Virus record (IMG/VR): IMGVR_UViG_2711768034_000012
Strand: one strand, 5' to 3'
Length of the DNA: 9,302 bases
Source: a virus
Taxonomy: Duplodnaviria > Heunggongvirae > Uroviricota > Caudoviricetes
Shown piece by piece: positions 1,388 to 6,566 of this stretch. Position numbers and translations under genes: made by a program. The notes beneath the pieces are model-generated. The model did not search any database, was not told where the DNA came from, and worked only from the letters and a program-made list of their open reading frames with translations. Positions within the stretch are counted from its first letter, which is position 1. Every line of letters starts with the position of its first letter.

Positions 1388-1426
1388 ATTGCAGCAAGGT
1401 GGTTATAATTGAAAGAATATTTAGAT

Positions 1427-2884
1427 ATGAATACATCTCATGTAAGAGTTGTTACTCATATGTGTGGGTTTCTGGTTTGGCTCTATAGTCTTTCAATGTT
1501 GCCACCAATGGTTGTAGCATTGTTTTATAAAGAAAAAAGCCTGTTCGTTTTCTTTATAACTTTCGTTATGTTTTTTTGCATTGGTGGCGGAGCGTGGTAT
1601 ACAACTAAGAAATCTGGCATTCAATTACGTACCCGTGATGGGTTTATTATAATTGTAATGTTTTGGATTTTGTTTTCTGTTATTAGTGCATTCCCTTTAT
1701 GGATTGACTCAGAACTTAATTTAACGTTCATTGATGCTCTGTTTGAAGGGGTTTCTGGAATAACAACAACAGGAGCAACTGTAATTGATGATGTTAGTTC
1801 ATTACCTCGGGCATATTTGTACTATCGGTCACAGTTAAATTTTATAGGTGGTTTAGGAGTTATTGTTCTGGCGGTTGCTGTATTGCCATTATTGGGTATT
1901 GGTGGTGCAAAGCTTTATCAGTCAGAAATGCCGGGGCCATTTAAGGATGACAAACTCACTCCCCGCCTGGCCGATACGTCACGGACACTGTGGATAACTT
2001 ATTCTTTATTAGGTATTGCTTGTATTGTCTGTTATAGACTTGCAGGAATGCCTTTGTTTGATGCTATTTGTCACGGGATTTCCACAGTTTCGCTTGGTGG
2101 TTTCTCAACTCATAGCGAGAGTATCGGATATTTTAATAACTATTTGGTTGAGCTGGTGGCTGGTTCTTTTTCCCTGCTATCGGCTTTCAACTTCACTCTT
2201 TGGTATATTGTTATTAGCAGGAAAACGATAAAACCTTTAATCAGAGATATTGAACTTCGTTTCTTTCTGTTAATAGCCTTAGGGGTGATCATTGTTACCT
2301 CTTTCCAGGTCTGGCATATAGGTATGTATGACTTGCATGGAAGTTTTATTCATTCGTTTTTTCTTGCCAGCTCCATGCTCACTGATAATGGTTTAGCTAC
2401 GCAGGATTATGCAAACTGGCCCACGCACACGATAGTGTTTTTGCTGTCGTCAAGTTTCTTTGGGGGATGTATAGGTTCAACTTGTGGTGGAATTAAGTCA
2501 CTTCGATTTCTTATACTTTTCAAACAAAGCAAACACGAGATAAATCAGCTTTCTCATCCCAGAGCGTTGTTGAGTGTAAATGTAGGAGGGAAGATAGTTA
2601 CAGATCGTGTAATGAGGTCTGTATGGAGTTTCTTTTTTCTTTATACTCTCTTCACGGTGTTTTTTATACTGGTGTTAAATGGTATGGGATATGATTTTCT
2701 TACATCATTTGCAACAGTGGCTGCATGTATTAATAATATGGGATTAGGTTTTGGGGCTACTGCATCGTCATTCGGAGTGCTTAATGACATTGCAAAATAT
2801 TTAATGTGCATAGCTATGATTCTTGGTCGCCTTGAAATTTATCCTGTTATTATATTGTTTTCAGGTTTTTTTTGGCGCTCCTAA
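1427..2884 (+). CDS. trkG: TrkG, Trk-system K+ uptake membrane protein (TrkH/TrkG family)
   Basis: 485 aa from ATG 1427 (MNTSHVRVVTHMCGF...), polytopic and hydrophobic, with the GxG-type selectivity-filter-like repeats typical of TrkH/TrkG. Strongly AT-rich coding sequence. The ORF track starts at an in-frame TTG at 1409, which sits 6 nt after an AGGTGG Shine-Dalgarno-like sequence, so the start is ambiguous. Confidence 0.9.
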   Translation: MNTSHVRVVTHMCGFLVWLYSLSMLPPMVVALFYKEKSLFVFFITFVMFFCIGGGAWYTTKKSGIQLRTRDGFIIIVMFWILFSVISAFPLWIDSELNLTFIDALFEGVSGITTTGATVIDDVSSLPRAYLYYRSQLNFIGGLGVIVLAVAVLPLLGIGGAKLYQSEMPGPFKDDKLTPRLADTSRTLWITYSLLGIACIVCYRLAGMPLFDAICHGISTVSLGGFSTHSESIGYFNNYLVELVAGSFSLLSAFNFTLWYIVISRKTIKPLIRDIELRFFLLIALGVIIVTSFQVWHIGMYDLHGSFIHSFFLASSMLTDNGLATQDYANWPTHTIVFLLSSSFFGGCIGSTCGGIKSLRFLILFKQSKHEINQLSHPRALLSVNVGGKIVTDRVMRSVWSFFFLYTLFTVFFILVLNGMGYDFLTSFATVAACINNMGLGFGATASSFGVLNDIAKYLMCIAMILGRLEIYPVIILFSGFFWRS

Positions 2885-3021: not shown

Positions 3022-3810
3022 ATGAGCGAGAAATTAAAGATAGTCTATCGCCCATTACAAGAATTGTCACCGTATGCGCACAACGCCAGGACGCACAGTA
3101 CTGAGCAGGTGGCACAACTGGTAGAAAGTATTAAGCAATTCGGCTGGACTAATCCGGTGCTGATTGACGAAAAGGGCGAAATTATTGCGGGTCACGGTCG
3201 TGTTATGGCGGCTGAAATGCTCAAAATGGATTCTGTTCCGGTCATTGTTCTGTCTGGCCTGACGGATGAGCAGAAAAAGGCGTACCGCCTGGCAGATAAT
3301 CGCCTACCGATGAATGCTGGCTGGGATGAAGATCTGTTGCGGATGGAGCTGTCGGACCTAATCAATGCTGATTTTGATGTCTCCCTGACAGGCTTCGGCC
3401 CGACAGAAATTGATGAACTGTTGACGGATGTTTTGCCCGGTACAGGAAATAAGGAGGAGCCGTATACGACGAAAATTGATACGCCTGTTTATGAGCCGTC
3501 GGGCGGTAAACCGGATATCAGTGAACTGTATGACGATACGAAAACTCAGGAGCTGATCAGCCGGATACGTTCGGCGTCCCTTGATCCTGATATTGAGAAA
3601 TTCCTCCTGTGTGCGGCAGAACGTCACACGGTGTTTAATTTCAGCAGAATTGCGGACTATTACGCTCATGCCCCCGCTGAAATTCAGTGCCTTTTCGAGG
3701 AGTCGGCGCTGGTGATCATTGATTATCAGCAGGCTATTGAAAATGGATTTGTCCGAATGACGCAGCGCATGGTGGCGATCATGCATAGCGGGGAGGAGGA
3801 ATATGCGTGA
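3022..3810 (+). CDS. ParB N-terminal domain (ParB/Srx fold) protein, YnaK-like, with no fused enzymatic domain
   Basis: 262 aa. The N-terminus (KIVYRPLQELSPYAHNARTHSTEQVAQLVESIKQFGWTNPVLIDEKGEIIAGHGRVMAAEMLKMDSVPVIVL...YRLADNRL) has the ParB N-terminal domain signature including a GHGR-type motif. It is followed by DFDVSLTGFGPTEIDELL, as seen after ParB domains in phage ParB-methyltransferase fusions. SD AAGG precedes ATG 3022. Confidence 0.72.
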   Translation: MSEKLKIVYRPLQELSPYAHNARTHSTEQVAQLVESIKQFGWTNPVLIDEKGEIIAGHGRVMAAEMLKMDSVPVIVLSGLTDEQKKAYRLADNRLPMNAGWDEDLLRMELSDLINADFDVSLTGFGPTEIDELLTDVLPGTGNKEEPYTTKIDTPVYEPSGGKPDISELYDDTKTQELISRIRSASLDPDIEKFLLCAAERHTVFNFSRIADYYAHAPAEIQCLFEESALVIIDYQQAIENGFVRMTQRMVAIMHSGEEEYA

Positions 3811-4735
3811 TGATTTTTGCGCCTTTATTCTGACTCACGGGCGACCGGACAAAGTTCTGACTTACCGGACGTGGCGTCGTGCTGGCTATACCGGGAAAAT
3901 TTTTATCGTTGTTGATGATGAAGATAAGACACGGCATCAGTACATGGCTGAATTTGGTGAACAGGTGCTGGTATTTTCCAAAGCCGATATTGCCAGTCGT
4001 TTTGACGAAGCCGATAATTTTGGTGACCACCGCTCAATTTTTTACGCCCGTAATGCCTGTTTCGACCTGGCAAAACTGGTCGGGTGTAAATACTTCATTC
4101 AGCTCGATGATGATTATCACGAGTTCCAGTTTCGGGTGGATCGCAACTATGACCAGGCCTATTTCCCGATAAGGAAACTGGATGCGATCCTTTCTGAAAT
4201 GCTGGCGTATTACGAATCAATACCCGCGCTTTCCATCGCTATGTCGCAGGGCGGGGATTTTCTTGGTGACAATGGCGGCCATGCTTCGTGGGTGAAACGC
4301 AAGGCAATGAACAGCTTTATCTGTTCGGTTGATCGACCGTTCTCATTCATGGGGCGCATTAACGAGGATGTGAATACGTACACGAATCTCGGTCGCCGTG
4401 GTGAATTGTTTATGACGATCGGTGCTGTCCAGTTAGGGCAGAAACAGACGCAGAAAAACAGCGGCGGAATGACCGAGCTGTATCTGGATTCCGGGACCTA
4501 CGTTAAAAGTTTTTATTCCGTCATGTATGCGCCGTCGTGCGTAAAAATCTCACTGATGGGCGCCAGCCATAAACGCATTCACCATCAGGTCACCTGGAAC
4601 AACGCTGCAGTAAAAATCCTTCACGAAAAATACAGGAAGAAGACACCCTGCATATTAATGGGGGTGACAAATGATTCCGTATTCGAAAGTCGAGTCTCTG
4701 GCAGCGTGCCGGATGACTGCACAACAAATCGCTGA
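3803..4735 (+). CDS. Soluble GT-A-fold-like (GT2-like) glycosyltransferase-family protein, hypothetical
   Basis: 310 aa. ATG 3803 overlaps the upstream stop (ATGCGTGA) and is preceded by the strong SD GGGAGGAGGA at 3791-3800. Motif order CAFILTHGRPDKV ... IFIVVDDED ... ARNACFDLAKLVGCKYFIQLDDDY parallels GT-A enzymes (PTYN-like first strand, DD after strand 2, ARN...DxD). No transmembrane segment is evident. Confidence 0.55.
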   Translation: MRDDFCAFILTHGRPDKVLTYRTWRRAGYTGKIFIVVDDEDKTRHQYMAEFGEQVLVFSKADIASRFDEADNFGDHRSIFYARNACFDLAKLVGCKYFIQLDDDYHEFQFRVDRNYDQAYFPIRKLDAILSEMLAYYESIPALSIAMSQGGDFLGDNGGHASWVKRKAMNSFICSVDRPFSFMGRINEDVNTYTNLGRRGELFMTIGAVQLGQKQTQKNSGGMTELYLDSGTYVKSFYSVMYAPSCVKISLMGASHKRIHHQVTWNNAAVKILHEKYRKKTPCILMGVTNDSVFESRVSGSVPDDCTTNR

Positions 4736-4922
4736 CGTTCTGGATGTTGATCTGAACCGACTGAAAGAAAATCGGGAAGCAATGACAAATTTTTACGCGT
4801 CCATCCGTAAGGGCAGAGCGAAAGGTGAAGCCGAGCTACGGGCGGCATTGTTTAAGCTTGCCAGAAAAGGGGATGCCTTTGCCCTGCGCGAACTACTCAG
4901 GGTGGATAAAAATCAGGACTAA
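4671..4922 (+). CDS. Small hypothetical protein (83 aa), possibly a DNA-binding or packaging accessory protein
   Basis: ATG 4671 preceded by a GGGGGTGA SD-like sequence. Overlaps the 3' end of the glycosyltransferase-like gene by 65 nt. Same frame as the downstream terminase-like ORF, separated by TAA plus one codon. Confidence 0.4.
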   Translation: MIPYSKVESLAACRMTAQQIADVLDVDLNRLKENREAMTNFYASIRKGRAKGEAELRAALFKLARKGDAFALRELLRVDKNQD

Positions 4923-4925
4923 CTG

Positions 4926-5552
4926 ATGAGCAGACCGGACTGGGGGGCGTTGCAGCAGGAGTATATTGCTGAATACACCCGCTCCGGTATATCTCCGGTG
5001 GCATGGTGTGAAGCAAGGGGACTGAATTACGCAACAGCCCGTCGTTACATCAAAAAACCTCCGAAAAATGCGCAGACAGAAATGCGCAAAACTGCGCAAA
5101 AAAGTGCGCAGAAAAAATCTGCGCAGACTGCACAAAAGCGGAACGGAAAATCTCAGGAAAAAAAGCCAGTATCCGATGCGTACCTGAATGAGGGCGATGC
5201 GGAAGAAATTTCGTTCTGTCCCGATGAATTCGGCGTTTCTGACCAGCAGGCGAAATTCGCAATGCTGGTTGCCCAGGGGAAAAAACTCGTTGAGGCATAT
5301 CGCCTGGCAGGATACGAGTCAGAGGGGAATGCGGCCTACGTAACCGCCAGCCAGCTCCTAAGAAATCCTAAGGTTTTTCGTGCTATCAGCTACTTCCGCA
5401 ATCAGTACCAGAAACGCTATACCGCAGACCTGGATTTACTGGTGAGTCAGTTGATGGCCATTGTCCAGGCCGACCCCAATCAGTTGGCACAATTTCGCCG
5501 TGTTAACTGCCGTTATTGCTGGGGCGAGAATCATCACTACCGCAGCAGATGA
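4926..5552 (+). CDS. Terminase small subunit-like protein (Terminase_2-type DNA-binding region), possibly C-terminally truncated
   Basis: 208 aa. N-terminal HTH-like segment (ISPVAWCEARGLNYATARRYIKK), a K/Q/A-rich low-complexity linker, then QQAKFAMLVAQGKKLVEAYRLAGYESEGNAAYVTASQLLRNPKVFRAI, which resembles the conserved DNA-binding motif of phage small terminases. Ends abruptly (RVNCRYCWGENHHYRSR*) with no large terminase gene following. Confidence 0.55.
   Translation: MSRPDWGALQQEYIAEYTRSGISPVAWCEARGLNYATARRYIKKPPKNAQTEMRKTAQKSAQKKSAQTAQKRNGKSQEKKPVSDAYLNEGDAEEISFCPDEFGVSDQQAKFAMLVAQGKKLVEAYRLAGYESEGNAAYVTASQLLRNPKVFRAISYFRNQYQKRYTADLDLLVSQLMAIVQADPNQLAQFRRVNCRYCWGENHHYRSR
5069..5133 (+). 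repeat. Array of five TGCGCA hexamers plus one degenerate TGCACA, spaced 8-15 bp, inside the terminase small-subunit-like gene
   Basis: TGCGCA at 5069, 5083, 5093, 5105 and 5120; TGCACA at 5128. Encodes the AQK/SAQ-rich linker. Confidence 0.6.
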
Positions 5553-5676
5553 AGCACCTACGATAACCAGAAAAAAAGCCTCCCCGGCTGCCGTGATCGC
5601 AAAAGCCAGTGCTGAGGCGATTAGTTGATTTTCCGTTATTCCTCCTGTGGTACTGCCCTACAGGGGGACGCATTGA

Positions 5677-6138
5677 ATGAGGTTATGGATGTTTATTCTT
5701 AATCAGAAAATTATCATTGGTGGAGAACGCTGGTTTACGCCAATGAAGGACTTAAAACCTGTAGACGGGTTAAAACTGTTGGTGGCAAGCAGCGATAACG
5801 ATCAGTATCGCTCCCGTAATGCATTAATCCGTCGCCACATTGAGAAAATGGATGCCAGTTTGCACGTCGGAACGAAGGAGTTTGATATTTCAAAGGTTTC
5901 CGAGGTGGATTCTGTTGATGATTTACTCATTGATAATGCCGCTCGTTATCTGCTGAAAGACTGGAAAGGGGTTGGTGAACTGGTTAATGGTGTTGAGGTT
6001 GCACTGGAATATACGGCAGAACGAGGGATCGCGCTGCTTAAGCAGAATCCAGAGTTGTACTGGCAGATCCTTGCAGAAGCAGCCAGCATCGCCCAGGGTA
6101 AAGAGCAGCAGAAGCAGGATACGATAAAAAAGCCATAG
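5677..6138 (+). CDS. Tail assembly chaperone (lambda gpG-like)
   Basis: 153 aa acidic protein. ATG 5677 is preceded by GGGGG at 5663-5667; an alternative in-frame ATG is at 5689. It directly precedes a -1-frame ORF and the tape-measure gene, the G/GT/H synteny of siphovirus tail modules. Confidence 0.6.
   Translation: MRLWMFILNQKIIIGGERWFTPMKDLKPVDGLKLLVASSDNDQYRSRNALIRRHIEKMDASLHVGTKEFDISKVSEVDSVDDLLIDNAARYLLKDWKGVGELVNGVEVALEYTAERGIALLKQNPELYWQILAEAASIAQGKEQQKQDTIKKP
6126..6132 (+). promoter_or_regulatory. Candidate -1 programmed ribosomal frameshift slippery heptamer A-AAA-AAG
   Basis: In-frame X-XXY-YYZ heptamer two codons before the chaperone stop (TAG 6136-6138). The -1 frame is open from here through 6446. 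Confidence 0.5.
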
Positions 6139-6446
6139 CTGCCCAGCGGTGGTTATCGGAGTTCGGGGGAGAAAGGGGGGAAAAGGCAAGATGGAAGCGA
6201 GAAAAACTCAGGTTGCCACCGATACCGGAACCAGAAATAGACCCGGTGCTTAAGGAGTTGTTGTACGCCTATTCGGTAATATCCCGTGCCCGACGTTATG
6301 CTGGAATGGCTGGGGTGCCTTTGCCTTTATCTCTGACAGAGATAAATGAATATTTAGCCACTCATCCGGTATTGATTGAGCGCGATGAATTTGAAGCAGT
6401 GATCTTTGCACTGGATGACCAGTATTTTCAGGAGCAGTGTGTGTAG
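6132..6446 (+). CDS. T segment of the tail assembly chaperone G-T frameshift fusion (lambda gpT-like)
   Basis: The -1 frame relative to the chaperone gene is open from 6132 to TAG 6444-6446 and encodes ...LPPIPEPEIDPVLKELLYAYSVISRARRYAGMAGVPLPLSLTEINEYLATHPVLIERDEFEAVIFALDDQYFQEQCV. The track ORF 6213..6446 starts at an internal TTG. Confidence 0.55.
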   Translation, partial: AIAAQRWLSEFGGERGEKARWKREKLRLPPIPEPEIDPVLKELLYAYSVISRARRYAGMAGVPLPLSLTEINEYLATHPVLIERDEFEAVIFALDDQYFQEQCV

Positions 6447-6566
6447 TTGTTAATTACGTACACTCTGTTACAGAGATGTGATGGTGTCTTTAATTAAATC
6501 GATGATGCTCCTGGAGAAAAGCATTGCGTGGCCTCGTAATCGCTATATCTACTATTATGTCGCCTG

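What the first reader, a model, noticed from the sequence alone, without database searches (positions are those of the whole stretch)
5041..5140. Palindromic TGCGCA hexamer array inside the terminase small-subunit-like gene
Five exact TGCGCA hexamers and one degenerate copy recur at 8-15 bp spacing within about 65 bp, all in the low-complexity linker of the terminase-like ORF. Pac-type phages often carry their packaging recognition site inside the small terminase gene, and terminase binding sites are typically short repeated motifs. The array could be a pac-like or regulatory binding-site cluster, or simply reflect slippage generating the AQK-repeat linker.
Basis: seen in the sequence. Interest (0 to 1): 0.4.

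Follow-up and report, generated by a model that had tools for sequence, protein, structure and literature searches.

The report
P1-like packaging-site hexamer array, relic
The TGCGCA repeats are real and are conserved as DNA rather than as protein, most likely as the docking sites where a phage small terminase recognises its own genome for packaging; here they survive as a relic in a prophage that has lost its packaging genes.

Summary
There are five exact TGCGCA hexamers (5069, 5083, 5093, 5105, 5120) and one decayed copy (TGCACA, 5129) within 66 bp, in codons 48-70 of a small-terminase (TerS) gene. Simulated sequences never gave more than 2 copies per 66 bp.

The array is a DNA-level element, not a by-product of the AQK peptide repeat. 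All 98 distinct homologous loci whose N-terminal helix reads A-R-R-Y carry 3-10 TGCGCA copies. The copies use all three reading frames and sit under divergent peptides. Synonymous recoding predicts 0.2-0.9 copies, against 3-9 observed.

Thirty loci with A-K-R-Y carry TGCGAA/TTCGCA arrays instead. Residue 39 is the only N-domain column that separates the two classes.

The same N-domain-plus-array cassette sits on unrelated TerS cores. The N-domain matches the phage P1 PacA profile, and P1's pac site is a TGATCA/G hexamer array at the same place in pacA.

Best reading: a P1-type terminase recognition (pac) array with a new specificity and no GATC. Binding and cleavage are inferred, not shown.

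In this window terS is truncated at about codon 205, and terL, portal and capsid genes are deleted. The array cannot package its own element.

The parts
4926..5552 (+). Truncated small-terminase (TerS) gene, 208 codons. Intact relatives have 363-364 codons.
   Evidence: Pfam Terminase_2 scores 26.6 bits against a cutoff of 26.1. PHROG phrog_51 'terminase small subunit'. The gene is 93% identical in DNA to terS of Escherichia phage vB_EcoS-666R9 up to window ~5541 and unrelated after that.
4926..5057 (+). N-terminal PacA-like helix-turn-helix domain, residues 1-44. This is the proposed reader of the hexamers.
   Evidence: The AF2 model has three helices (6-20, 24-31, 35-38+) with mean pLDDT 82. 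The best Foldseek PDB matches are almost all HTH DNA-binding domains, but none is significant. The domain matches the P1 PacA profile phrog_1711 at E 4e-5 to 1e-6, and PacA matches phrog_370 at E 2e-4.
5040..5042 (+). Codon for Arg39 (CGT) in the third helix. This is the residue that co-varies with hexamer position 5.
   Evidence: Column 39 is the only N-domain column that separates TGCGCA arrays (R, 48 unique N-domain sequences, plus one H) from TGCGAA arrays (K, 13 unique sequences).
5069..5134 (.). Hexamer array: TGCGCA at 5069, 5083, 5093, 5105 and 5120, plus the decayed copy TGCACA at 5129.
   Evidence: The array is conserved in homologues in three reading frames.
5058..5225 (+). Region encoding the flexible, low-complexity linker (residues ~45-100) between the N-domain and the canonical Terminase_2 DNA-binding and oligomerisation core.
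   Evidence: AF2 pLDDT is below 50 for residues 60-93 of the full-length relative. Among close relatives the linker downstream of the array is the most variable segment, with 59% variable columns against 23% in the array.
5232..5540 (+). Canonical Terminase_2 HTH and the start of the oligomerisation helix (residues ~103-205). The gene is cut here.
   Evidence: The Pfam Terminase_2 match covers residues 123-189. The AF2 model has helices 106-116, 121-127, 135-146 and 148-182.
5535..5541 (.). Deletion junction, with about 9 kb missing. It joins terS codon ~205 to the ydaY/tail region. terL, portal and capsid genes are absent.
   Evidence: Homology to intact terS ends at window 5541. Homology to the E. 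coli Rac ydaY/tail region starts at window ~5535. The intact gene order is seen in ON470614. The same remnant occurs on at least 24 contigs.

Best explanation
The array is the recognition part of a P1-type packaging (pac) site that lies inside terS.

Proposed mechanism in intact relatives:
- TerS is an oligomer built on a Terminase_2-type core.
- Each subunit carries an extra N-terminal PacA-like helix-turn-helix domain on a flexible linker of about 50 residues.
- Each N-domain docks on one TGCGCA hexamer.
- Five or six hexamers spaced 9-15 bp apart give multivalent, sequence-specific capture of the phage concatemer.
- Bound TerS then recruits TerL to cut nearby and start packaging.

Arg39 of the third helix is proposed to read position 5 of the hexamer. 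R pairs with TGCGCA and K pairs with TGCGAA. P1 has R and TGATCA, which also has C at position 5.

The DNA that encodes the linker is the DNA that is bound. Reader and address are therefore inherited as one cassette of about 210 bp, and this cassette has been recombined onto unrelated TerS cores.

In this window the cassette is a relic. terS is cut at about codon 205 and terL, portal and capsid genes are deleted. The array cannot package its own element. It could still be recognised in trans by a related R-class phage.

Shown here: the array exists; it is conserved at the DNA level; it co-varies with residue 39; it is unique within the three whole phage genomes checked; the N-domain is PacA-like at profile level; the gene is truncated.

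Inferred, not shown: N-domain-hexamer binding, the Arg39 contact, recruitment of TerL, the cleavage position, and headful packaging.
For: 1. DNA-level conservation. Homologues with only 35-50% protein identity keep 4-9 TGCGCA copies right after the N-domain. They come from Klebsiella, Citrobacter, Raoultella, Serratia, Buttiauxella and Superficieibacter, and include an Aeromonas phage.

2. Reading frames. In 18 representatives, 120 hexamers are read as xxT GCG CAx (88), xTG CGC Axx (25) or TGC GCA (7).

3. Synonymous recoding. The peptide was kept fixed and 5000 resamplings were run per gene on 23 representatives. Expected counts were 0.2-1.9 copies against 3-9 observed. At most 2 of 5000 recodings reached the observed count in any gene.

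4. Co-variation. Among 129 distinct loci, A-R-R-Y goes with TGCGCA in 98 of 98 and A-K-R-Y goes with TGCGAA/TTCGCA in 30 of 30. Column 39 is the only separating column. Some K-class N-domains differ from an R-class one at only 2 other residues, yet differ from other K-class ones at 18-22.

5. Modularity. The same N-domain and array are joined to TerS cores with no detectable similarity to each other (phrog_51 versus phrog_370; BLASTP E 7.9).

6. Loss of reader, decay of sites. Rac-SA53 has its N-domain replaced by a deletion fusion, and 3 of its 5 remaining hexamers are mutated.

7. Uniqueness. In the 38.7-kb intact relative the terS array is the only TGCGCA cluster, with 4 copies in 100 bp and 1 in every other window. 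The same holds for TGCGAA in phages Pmp11 and RothD, with 8 and 6 copies per 150 bp against at most 2 elsewhere.

8. Precedent. The N-domain matches the P1 PacA profile. P1 pac is seven TGATCA/G hexamers inside pacA at gene nt 194-347, with spacings of 7-15 bp. Synonymous mutation of those hexamers cut P1 packaging about 9-fold (PMC10028697).

9. Generality. A second, different N-domain class carries its own GGGGCA/TGCCCC array in the same position.

10. Association in viral contigs. Of 120 sampled IMG/VR stretches with three closely spaced TGCGCA, 77 lie directly downstream of this N-domain, and one more is cut by a contig end.
Against: - No binding, footprint, cleavage or virion-end data exist for any member of this family.
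- Codon 39 lies only 27 bp from the first hexamer. Block inheritance or block recombination of 'helix 3 + array' could produce the co-variation without any direct contact.
- Unlike P1, the window and its closest relatives have one cluster, no GATC and no IHF consensus nearby. Only some other members show a second cluster downstream.
- For the related Terminase_2 protein of phage SF6, repeated 'boxes' in pac turned out not to drive specific binding (PMC4737164). Repeats alone are therefore weak evidence.
- About a third of sampled TGCGCA triple clusters in viral contigs are unrelated to this domain.
- The structural assignment of the N-domain as HTH rests on a 50-residue model whose Foldseek matches have E > 0.3.
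- Among close relatives, hexamer positions are only modestly less variable than spacer positions (5 of 36 against 14 of 50 variable columns).
Confidence: 0.7

Rival explanations
1. The hexamers are bound by the TerS N-domain, but the role is regulatory rather than packaging. For example, TerS could autoregulate its own synthesis or the late operon, or control translation through the linker.
For: Every comparative result that points to N-domain-hexamer recognition fits a regulatory site in cis equally well. The window family has a single cluster with no obvious cleavage module or IHF site.
Against: The homologous P1 arrangement is an experimentally defined pac site (PMC10028697). The domain is always fused to a small terminase, on unrelated cores. 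An operator inside the coding region, 140 nt past the start codon, is an unusual place for repression.
Confidence: 0.12
2. The array is a by-product of replication slippage that generated a low-complexity Ala-Gln-Lys linker. The hexamers have no function as DNA.
For: TRF reports imperfect 10-, 12- and 36-nt periods. Relatives differ by 9- and 27-nt deletions between copies. The linker is predicted to be disordered.
Against: Hexamers occur in three reading frames and encode AQ, MRK/LRT and CA. Codon choice is far from what the peptides require; at most 2 of 5000 recodings reached the observed count in any gene. The hexamer type tracks residue 39 of the neighbouring domain. The arrays persist across peptides that cannot be aligned.
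Confidence: 0.04
3. The palindromic hexamers act at the RNA level, by forming hairpins in the terS mRNA that affect stability or translation.
For: The 96-nt RNA covering the array folds at -31.7 kcal/mol, z = -6.2. R-class relatives give z of about -4.
Against: This stability follows trivially from repeating a self-complementary hexamer. K-class arrays made of direct TGCGAA repeats show no excess structure (z +1.5 and -0.55), yet they are conserved just as strongly. There was no Rfam match.
Confidence: 0.03
4. The hexamers are targets of some other factor. Candidates are the upstream ParB_N/TAGT proteins, the small upstream ORF, or a restriction-modification or methylation system (TGCGCA contains GCGC).
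For: ParB_N, TAGT and a small TerS-like ORF lie immediately upstream.
Against: The Klebsiella, Yersinia, Aeromonas and Pasteurella loci keep their arrays but have different upstream genes, with no ParB_N or TAGT annotated. The K-class motif TGCGAA is not palindromic and has no GCGC. Restriction pressure would deplete sites, not cluster them.
Confidence: 0.05

Closest known systems
Bacteriophage P1 pac site and PacA (pacase small subunit)
   Same: Both have several copies of a 6-bp palindromic motif inside the small-terminase gene, just downstream of a homologous N-terminal domain (...LN..TARRY[IL]...). Copies are irregularly spaced at 7-15 bp and lie in more than one reading frame. In both, the hexamer has C at position 5 and the protein has Arg at the equivalent helix position (PMC10028697).
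   Different: The motif is TGCGCA, not TGATCA/G, so there is no GATC and no Dam-methylation control. The window has one cluster of 5-6 copies instead of P1's 4 + 3 flanking a mapped cleavage site, and no IHF consensus. The TerS core is Terminase_2-like, not PacA-like. TerL of intact relatives is the Terminase_6N/6C type and shows no similarity to PacB.
SPP1/SF6 pac site and G1P (Pfam Terminase_2 small terminase)
   Same: The TerS core belongs to the same Pfam family. In both, pac overlaps the start of the TerS gene and contains direct repeats (PMC4737164).
   Different: The SF6 DNA-binding domain binds weakly and without sequence specificity, and the box repeats did not drive binding (PMC4737164). 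Here an additional N-terminal domain is present, and the repeats are strongly conserved and co-vary with it.
Phage lambda cosB R sites bound by the Nu1 winged HTH (from my own knowledge, not tested here)
   Same: Several copies of a short site next to or within the start of the small-terminase gene are read by an N-terminal HTH of TerS, giving multivalent anchoring of terminase.
   Different: Lambda has three 16-bp R sites plus an IHF site and cuts at cosN to give cohesive ends. There is no sequence or domain similarity to lambda here, and the packaging mode of this family is unknown.
P22 pac (22-bp asymmetric site inside gene 3)
   Same: The packaging signal is embedded in the TerS coding sequence (PMC9611059).
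   Different: P22 has a single asymmetric 22-bp site rather than a hexamer array, and its TerS family is different.

Membership tests
P1-type pac site (PacA-read hexamer array) | Multiple copies of one hexamer clustered inside the small-terminase gene. | tested here: met
   The window has 5 exact copies plus 1 decayed copy in 66 bp of terS. P1 has hexamers at pacA nt 194-347.
P1-type pac site (PacA-read hexamer array) | A PacA-like N-terminal DNA-binding domain encoded immediately upstream of the array. | tested here: met
   Family members hit the PacA profile phrog_1711 at E 4e-5 and 1e-6. PacA hits phrog_370 at E 2e-4. PacA itself defines phrog_1711 (E 4e-202). Pairwise BLASTP is only marginal (E 0.02-0.04), over ...LN..(T/S)ARRY(I/L)....
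P1-type pac site (PacA-read hexamer array) | Hexamers contain GATC, so that cleavage is controlled by Dam methylation. | tested here: not met
   The motif is TGCGCA, or TGCGAA in the sister class. The array contains no GATC.
P1-type pac site (PacA-read hexamer array) | Two hexamer clusters (4 + 3) flanking the cleavage site, with an IHF site between them. | tested here: not met
   The window has one cluster and no IHF consensus in 4800-5600. Some other members do have a second cluster 50-160 bp downstream.
P1-type pac site (PacA-read hexamer array) | Terminase binds the hexamers and cuts nearby, and packaging series start there. | not testable with these tools
   No biochemical or virion-end data were available. 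Literature searches found nothing for this family.
P1-type pac site (PacA-read hexamer array) | A PacB-type large subunit as partner. | tested here: not met
   TerL of the intact relative is Terminase_6N/6C and shows no BLASTP similarity to PacB (E 0.8). The window has no terL at all.
Pfam Terminase_2 small terminase (PF03592) | A profile match above the gathering threshold. | tested here: met
   The window protein scores 26.6 bits against a cutoff of 26.1, which is marginal. The full-length relative scores 35.1 bits.
Pfam Terminase_2 small terminase (PF03592) | A complete oligomerisation core and C-terminal region, needed for a functional TerS. | tested here: not met
   The window ORF stops at 208 residues against 363-364 in intact relatives. 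Homology ends at window 5541.
Functional pac site of a live phage | Cognate terL, portal and capsid genes in the same element. | tested here: not met
   The window goes from terS' directly to ydaY and a truncated tape-measure gene. The intact gene order is seen in ON470614.

The most novel reading that the evidence does not exclude
A portable 'reader plus address' packaging cassette. A PacA-like HTH domain and the hexamer array it reads are encoded back to back in about 210 bp. The cassette is shuffled among unrelated small-terminase cores. A single residue (Arg39 or Lys39) sets which hexamer is recognised (TGCGCA or TGCGAA). This would be a legible and engineerable recognition code for pac-type terminases.

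A corollary follows. Relic arrays in defective prophages such as this one could still act as chromosomal packaging start sites for related phages. That would mobilise neighbouring host DNA.
Probability: 0.35. Interest if true: 0.75.

Novelty: new variant of a known kind. Interest (0 to 1): 0.6.

Why it matters
How pac-type small terminases pick out viral DNA is still described as unclear and controversial. In vitro binding to known pac sites is mostly weak and non-specific (PMC9611059, PMC4737164), and the pac sites of well-studied phages such as ES18 remain unknown (PMC11260489).

In this family the target can be read from sequence alone. The hexamers are conserved in three reading frames, and one amino-acid position tracks one base of the motif across about 130 distinct loci. 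That yields a direct swap experiment: R39K together with TGCGCA to TGCGAA.

It also gives a way to predict pac sites and packaging compatibility for many enterobacterial prophages. This bears on predicting generalised or lateral transduction and on building phagemids or transducing particles with chosen specificity.

For this window the practical message is smaller. The array is a well-preserved fossil in a Rac-like prophage remnant.

Tried and rejected
- Literature searches for TGCGCA with terminase, for hexameric repeats with pac site, and for Rac prophage packaging found nothing on this family.
- Pfam does not recognise the N-domain.
- A sequence search of PDB chains with the full-length protein gave nothing significant.
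- Foldseek of the 50-residue model against the PDB gave only non-significant HTH matches. The full-length AF2 model was too poor (mean pLDDT 50) to use beyond secondary structure.
- The two large protein searches returned only short fragments or near-identical E. coli proteins, so they added no diversity.
- A scan for P1 PacA relatives returned only 95-98% identical P1-like copies, so it gave no further specificity classes.
- No IHF consensus and no second hexamer cluster were found in the window.
- An RNA-structure reading was considered and rejected.
- A link to the upstream ParB_N/TAGT genes was considered and rejected, because distant homologues keep the array without them.
- Among close relatives the difference in variability between hexamer and spacer positions is small. 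I did not lean on it.

Full report
**1. What is in the window**

The window is a Rac-like prophage remnant in an enterobacterial chromosome. The gene order is:
- lysozyme (343-828)
- Rz (813-1289)
- trkG (1409-2884)
- a ParB_N protein (3022-3810)
- a TET-associated glycosyltransferase homologue (3803-4735)
- a small ORF (4671-4922)
- a small-terminase gene (4926-5552)
- YdaY (5677-6138)
- a truncated tape-measure gene (6612-8132)

The terS gene is 93% identical in DNA to terS of induced Rac-like phages such as vB_EcoS-666R9, but only up to window 5541. Intact relatives encode 363-364 residues, followed by terL, portal and capsid genes. In the window, homology to the Rac ydaY/tail region starts at about 5535. 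About 9 kb has therefore been deleted, and TerS is cut at about residue 205. The identical 208-residue remnant is found on at least 24 contigs, including chromosomes of 4.6-4.7 Mb.

**2. The observation**

TGCGCA starts at 5069, 5083, 5093, 5105 and 5120, and TGCACA starts at 5129. Spacings are 14, 10, 12, 15 and 9 bp. The remaining 9.2 kb holds four copies.

Simulated sequences never reached more than two copies per 66 bp. This held even when the model was trained on the A-rich linker itself. The array covers codons 48-70, which read NAQTEMRKTAQKSAQKKSAQTAQK.

One copy, at 5083, is in a different reading frame (ATG CGC AAA) from the others (xxT GCG CAx). In many close relatives the sixth copy is a perfect TGCGCA.

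**3. Is it the DNA or the peptide that is conserved?**

I collected terS starts from three sources:
- annotated phages
- one genome per species
- IMG/VR viral contigs

This gave 129 distinct sequences.

Homologues with only 35-50% protein identity keep 4-9 TGCGCA copies directly after the N-terminal domain. They come from Klebsiella, Citrobacter, Raoultella, Serratia, Buttiauxella and Superficieibacter.

In Klebsiella phage ST405-OXA48phi1.3 six copies use all three reading frames, encoding AQ, LRT and CA. Over 18 representatives, 120 hexamers split 88/25/7 among the frames.

I then held each peptide fixed and resampled synonymous codons, with 5000 recodings per gene on 23 representatives. The expected count was 0.2-1.9 copies against 3-9 observed. 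At most 2 of 5000 recodings reached the observed count in any gene, and none did in most.

The hexamers stay while the peptide drifts.

**4. What reads it?**

The first 44 residues form a small three-helix domain (AF2 pLDDT 82; helices 6-20, 24-31 and 35 onwards). Its best PDB fold matches are nearly all helix-turn-helix DNA-binding domains, though none is significant for so short a query.

It is followed by a disordered linker, then the canonical Terminase_2 HTH and core.

The same N-domain and a TGCGCA array occur on TerS proteins whose remaining sequence is unrelated. Aeromonas phage phiARM81mr has seven copies on a phrog_370 core. The Rac-type core and the RothD core show no similarity (BLASTP E 7.9). 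The array therefore travels with the N-domain, not with the core.

**5. Co-variation**

Every locus whose third helix reads A-R-R-Y has a TGCGCA array (98 of 98, 3-10 copies). Every locus with A-K-R-Y has TGCGAA/TTCGCA instead (30 of 30, 4-9 copies, with 0-2 TGCGCA). The K-class loci include Yersinia, Providencia, Klebsiella RothD-type and Pasteurella phages.

In Pasteurella phage Pmp11 the TGCGAA copies are read both as TGC GAA (Cys-Glu) and as xxT GCG AAx.

Column 39 is the only N-domain column that separates the two classes. The neighbouring helix residues vary within both classes. Some K-class domains differ from an R-class domain at only two other positions, while differing from other K-class domains at 18-22 positions. 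The two classes are therefore interleaved in sequence space.

This fits a direct read-out of hexamer position 5 by residue 39. That is an inference. Codon 39 lies 27 bp from the first hexamer, so transfer of 'helix 3 plus array' as one block would give the same pattern.

One natural experiment points the same way. Rac-SA53 has its N-domain replaced by a deletion fusion, and three of its five remaining hexamers are mutated.

**6. Comparison with what is known**

The N-domain matches the PHROG profile of P1 PacA (phrog_1711) at E 4e-5 to 1e-6. PacA matches phrog_370 at E 2e-4. Pairwise similarity centres on ...LN..TARRY(I/L)....

P1's pac site is seven TGATCA/G hexamers inside pacA. They form a 4 + 3 arrangement around the mapped cleavage sites, with an IHF site. 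Synonymous mutation of the hexamers lowered P1 packaging about 9-fold (PMC10028697).

In my own count the P1 hexamers lie at pacA nt 194-228 and 324-347. Spacings are 7, 12, 15 and 12, 11 bp, and two reading frames are used. That is the same place and the same irregular spacing as in this family, where the modal spacings are 12, 14, 9, 7 and 10 bp. P1 has Arg at the equivalent helix position and C at hexamer position 5, which is consistent with the proposed code.

The differences from P1 are:
- no GATC, and hence no Dam control
- a single cluster and no IHF consensus in the window, although some other members carry a second cluster 50-160 bp downstream
- a Terminase_2-type core
- a Terminase_6-type TerL unrelated to PacB

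I therefore treat the array as a new variant of the P1 kind of pac site, not as a member in the strict sense.

**7. Further checks**

Uniqueness within whole phage genomes:
- In the 38.7-kb intact relative, the terS array is the only TGCGCA cluster.
- In Pmp11 and RothD, the terS array is the only TGCGAA/TTCGCA cluster.

Of these, 77 lie directly downstream of the N-domain signature and one more is cut by a contig end. The other 42 have no such domain nearby and are mostly simple tandem repeats in unrelated genes.

A second class: a different TerS N-domain class (Erwinia/Izhakiella type) carries its own array in the same position. It has GGGGCA three to five times, followed by inverted TGCCCC, again in more than one reading frame. 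This suggests the 'HTH followed by its own sites' layout is more general.

**8. Rivals**

- *Slippage.* It explains copy-number changes but not the frame switching, the codon bias or the co-variation.
- *RNA structure.* The strong predicted RNA fold (z -6.2) is what any set of self-complementary hexamers gives. K-class arrays of direct repeats have no such fold but are equally conserved. Rfam has no match.
- *ParB_N/TAGT or the small upstream ORF.* Distant loci keep the array without these neighbours.
- *A regulatory role for N-domain binding.* This cannot be excluded.
- *General caution.* The SPP1/SF6 precedent, where pac 'boxes' did not drive specific binding (PMC4737164), is a reason not to treat repeats alone as proof.

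**9. Verdict**

In this particular window the array is a fossil: five of six copies are intact, inside a truncated terS of a prophage that has lost its packaging and head genes.

Noticed in passing
window 3022-4735: A ParB_N-domain protein (262 aa) and a TET-associated glycosyltransferase homologue (PF20691, E 1e-34) overlap by 8 nt directly upstream of terS. The window contains no TET/JBP or cytosine methyltransferase. They may be a DNA-modification pair of Rac-like phages.
   Followed up: no
window 4671-4922: A small ORF just before terS matches only the C-terminal part of a different small-terminase family (phrog_309 positions 145-218 of 319, E 2.5e-22). It is annotated as hypothetical in relatives.
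   Followed up: partly
window 5535-5541: Deletion junction. About 9 kb (terL, portal, capsid and head-tail genes) is missing compared with ON470614. The same 208-aa TerS remnant occurs on at least 24 contigs. No complete E. coli genome in the collection held window 4900-6700 (which spans this junction) as one continuous match.
   Followed up: partly
window 5058-5140; L083, L105, L131, L157: Several IMG/VR copies are frameshifted inside the array. A profile search returned mainly 44-88-aa fragments that end there. The A6-A9 runs between hexamers look prone to frameshifts, either real or from sequencing.
   Followed up: no
L001 4327-5421 (full-length relative), residues ~195-255: The TerS core carries CxxC ... 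CPxC motifs (NCRYCWG ... NPDCPKCCGEG), a zinc-ribbon-like insert that is unusual for a Terminase_2 protein. The window retains only the first CxxC.
   Followed up: no
L010, L011, L185-L200 (terS nt ~125-205): A different TerS N-terminal domain class (MSKPDEKAIERDFCAG...KALRYMA) is followed by GGGGCA(A)n three to five times and then two or three inverted copies (TGCCCC/GCCCC), in more than one reading frame. This is the same layout with another specificity.
   Followed up: partly
L004 nt 360-398 of terS; L134 225-266; L096 237-328: Some family members have a second, smaller TGCGCA cluster 50-160 bp downstream of the first, reminiscent of P1's 4 + 3 arrangement. The Rac-type genes, including the window, do not.
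   Followed up: partly
L209, L256, L291, L306, L319: Irregular TGCGCA arrays in viral contigs with no PacA-like N-domain nearby. Their context and function were not examined.
   Followed up: no
window 1409-2884: trkG (a TrkH-family potassium transporter) sits between the lysis genes and the packaging module as a cargo gene, as in intact Rac-like phages.
   Followed up: no
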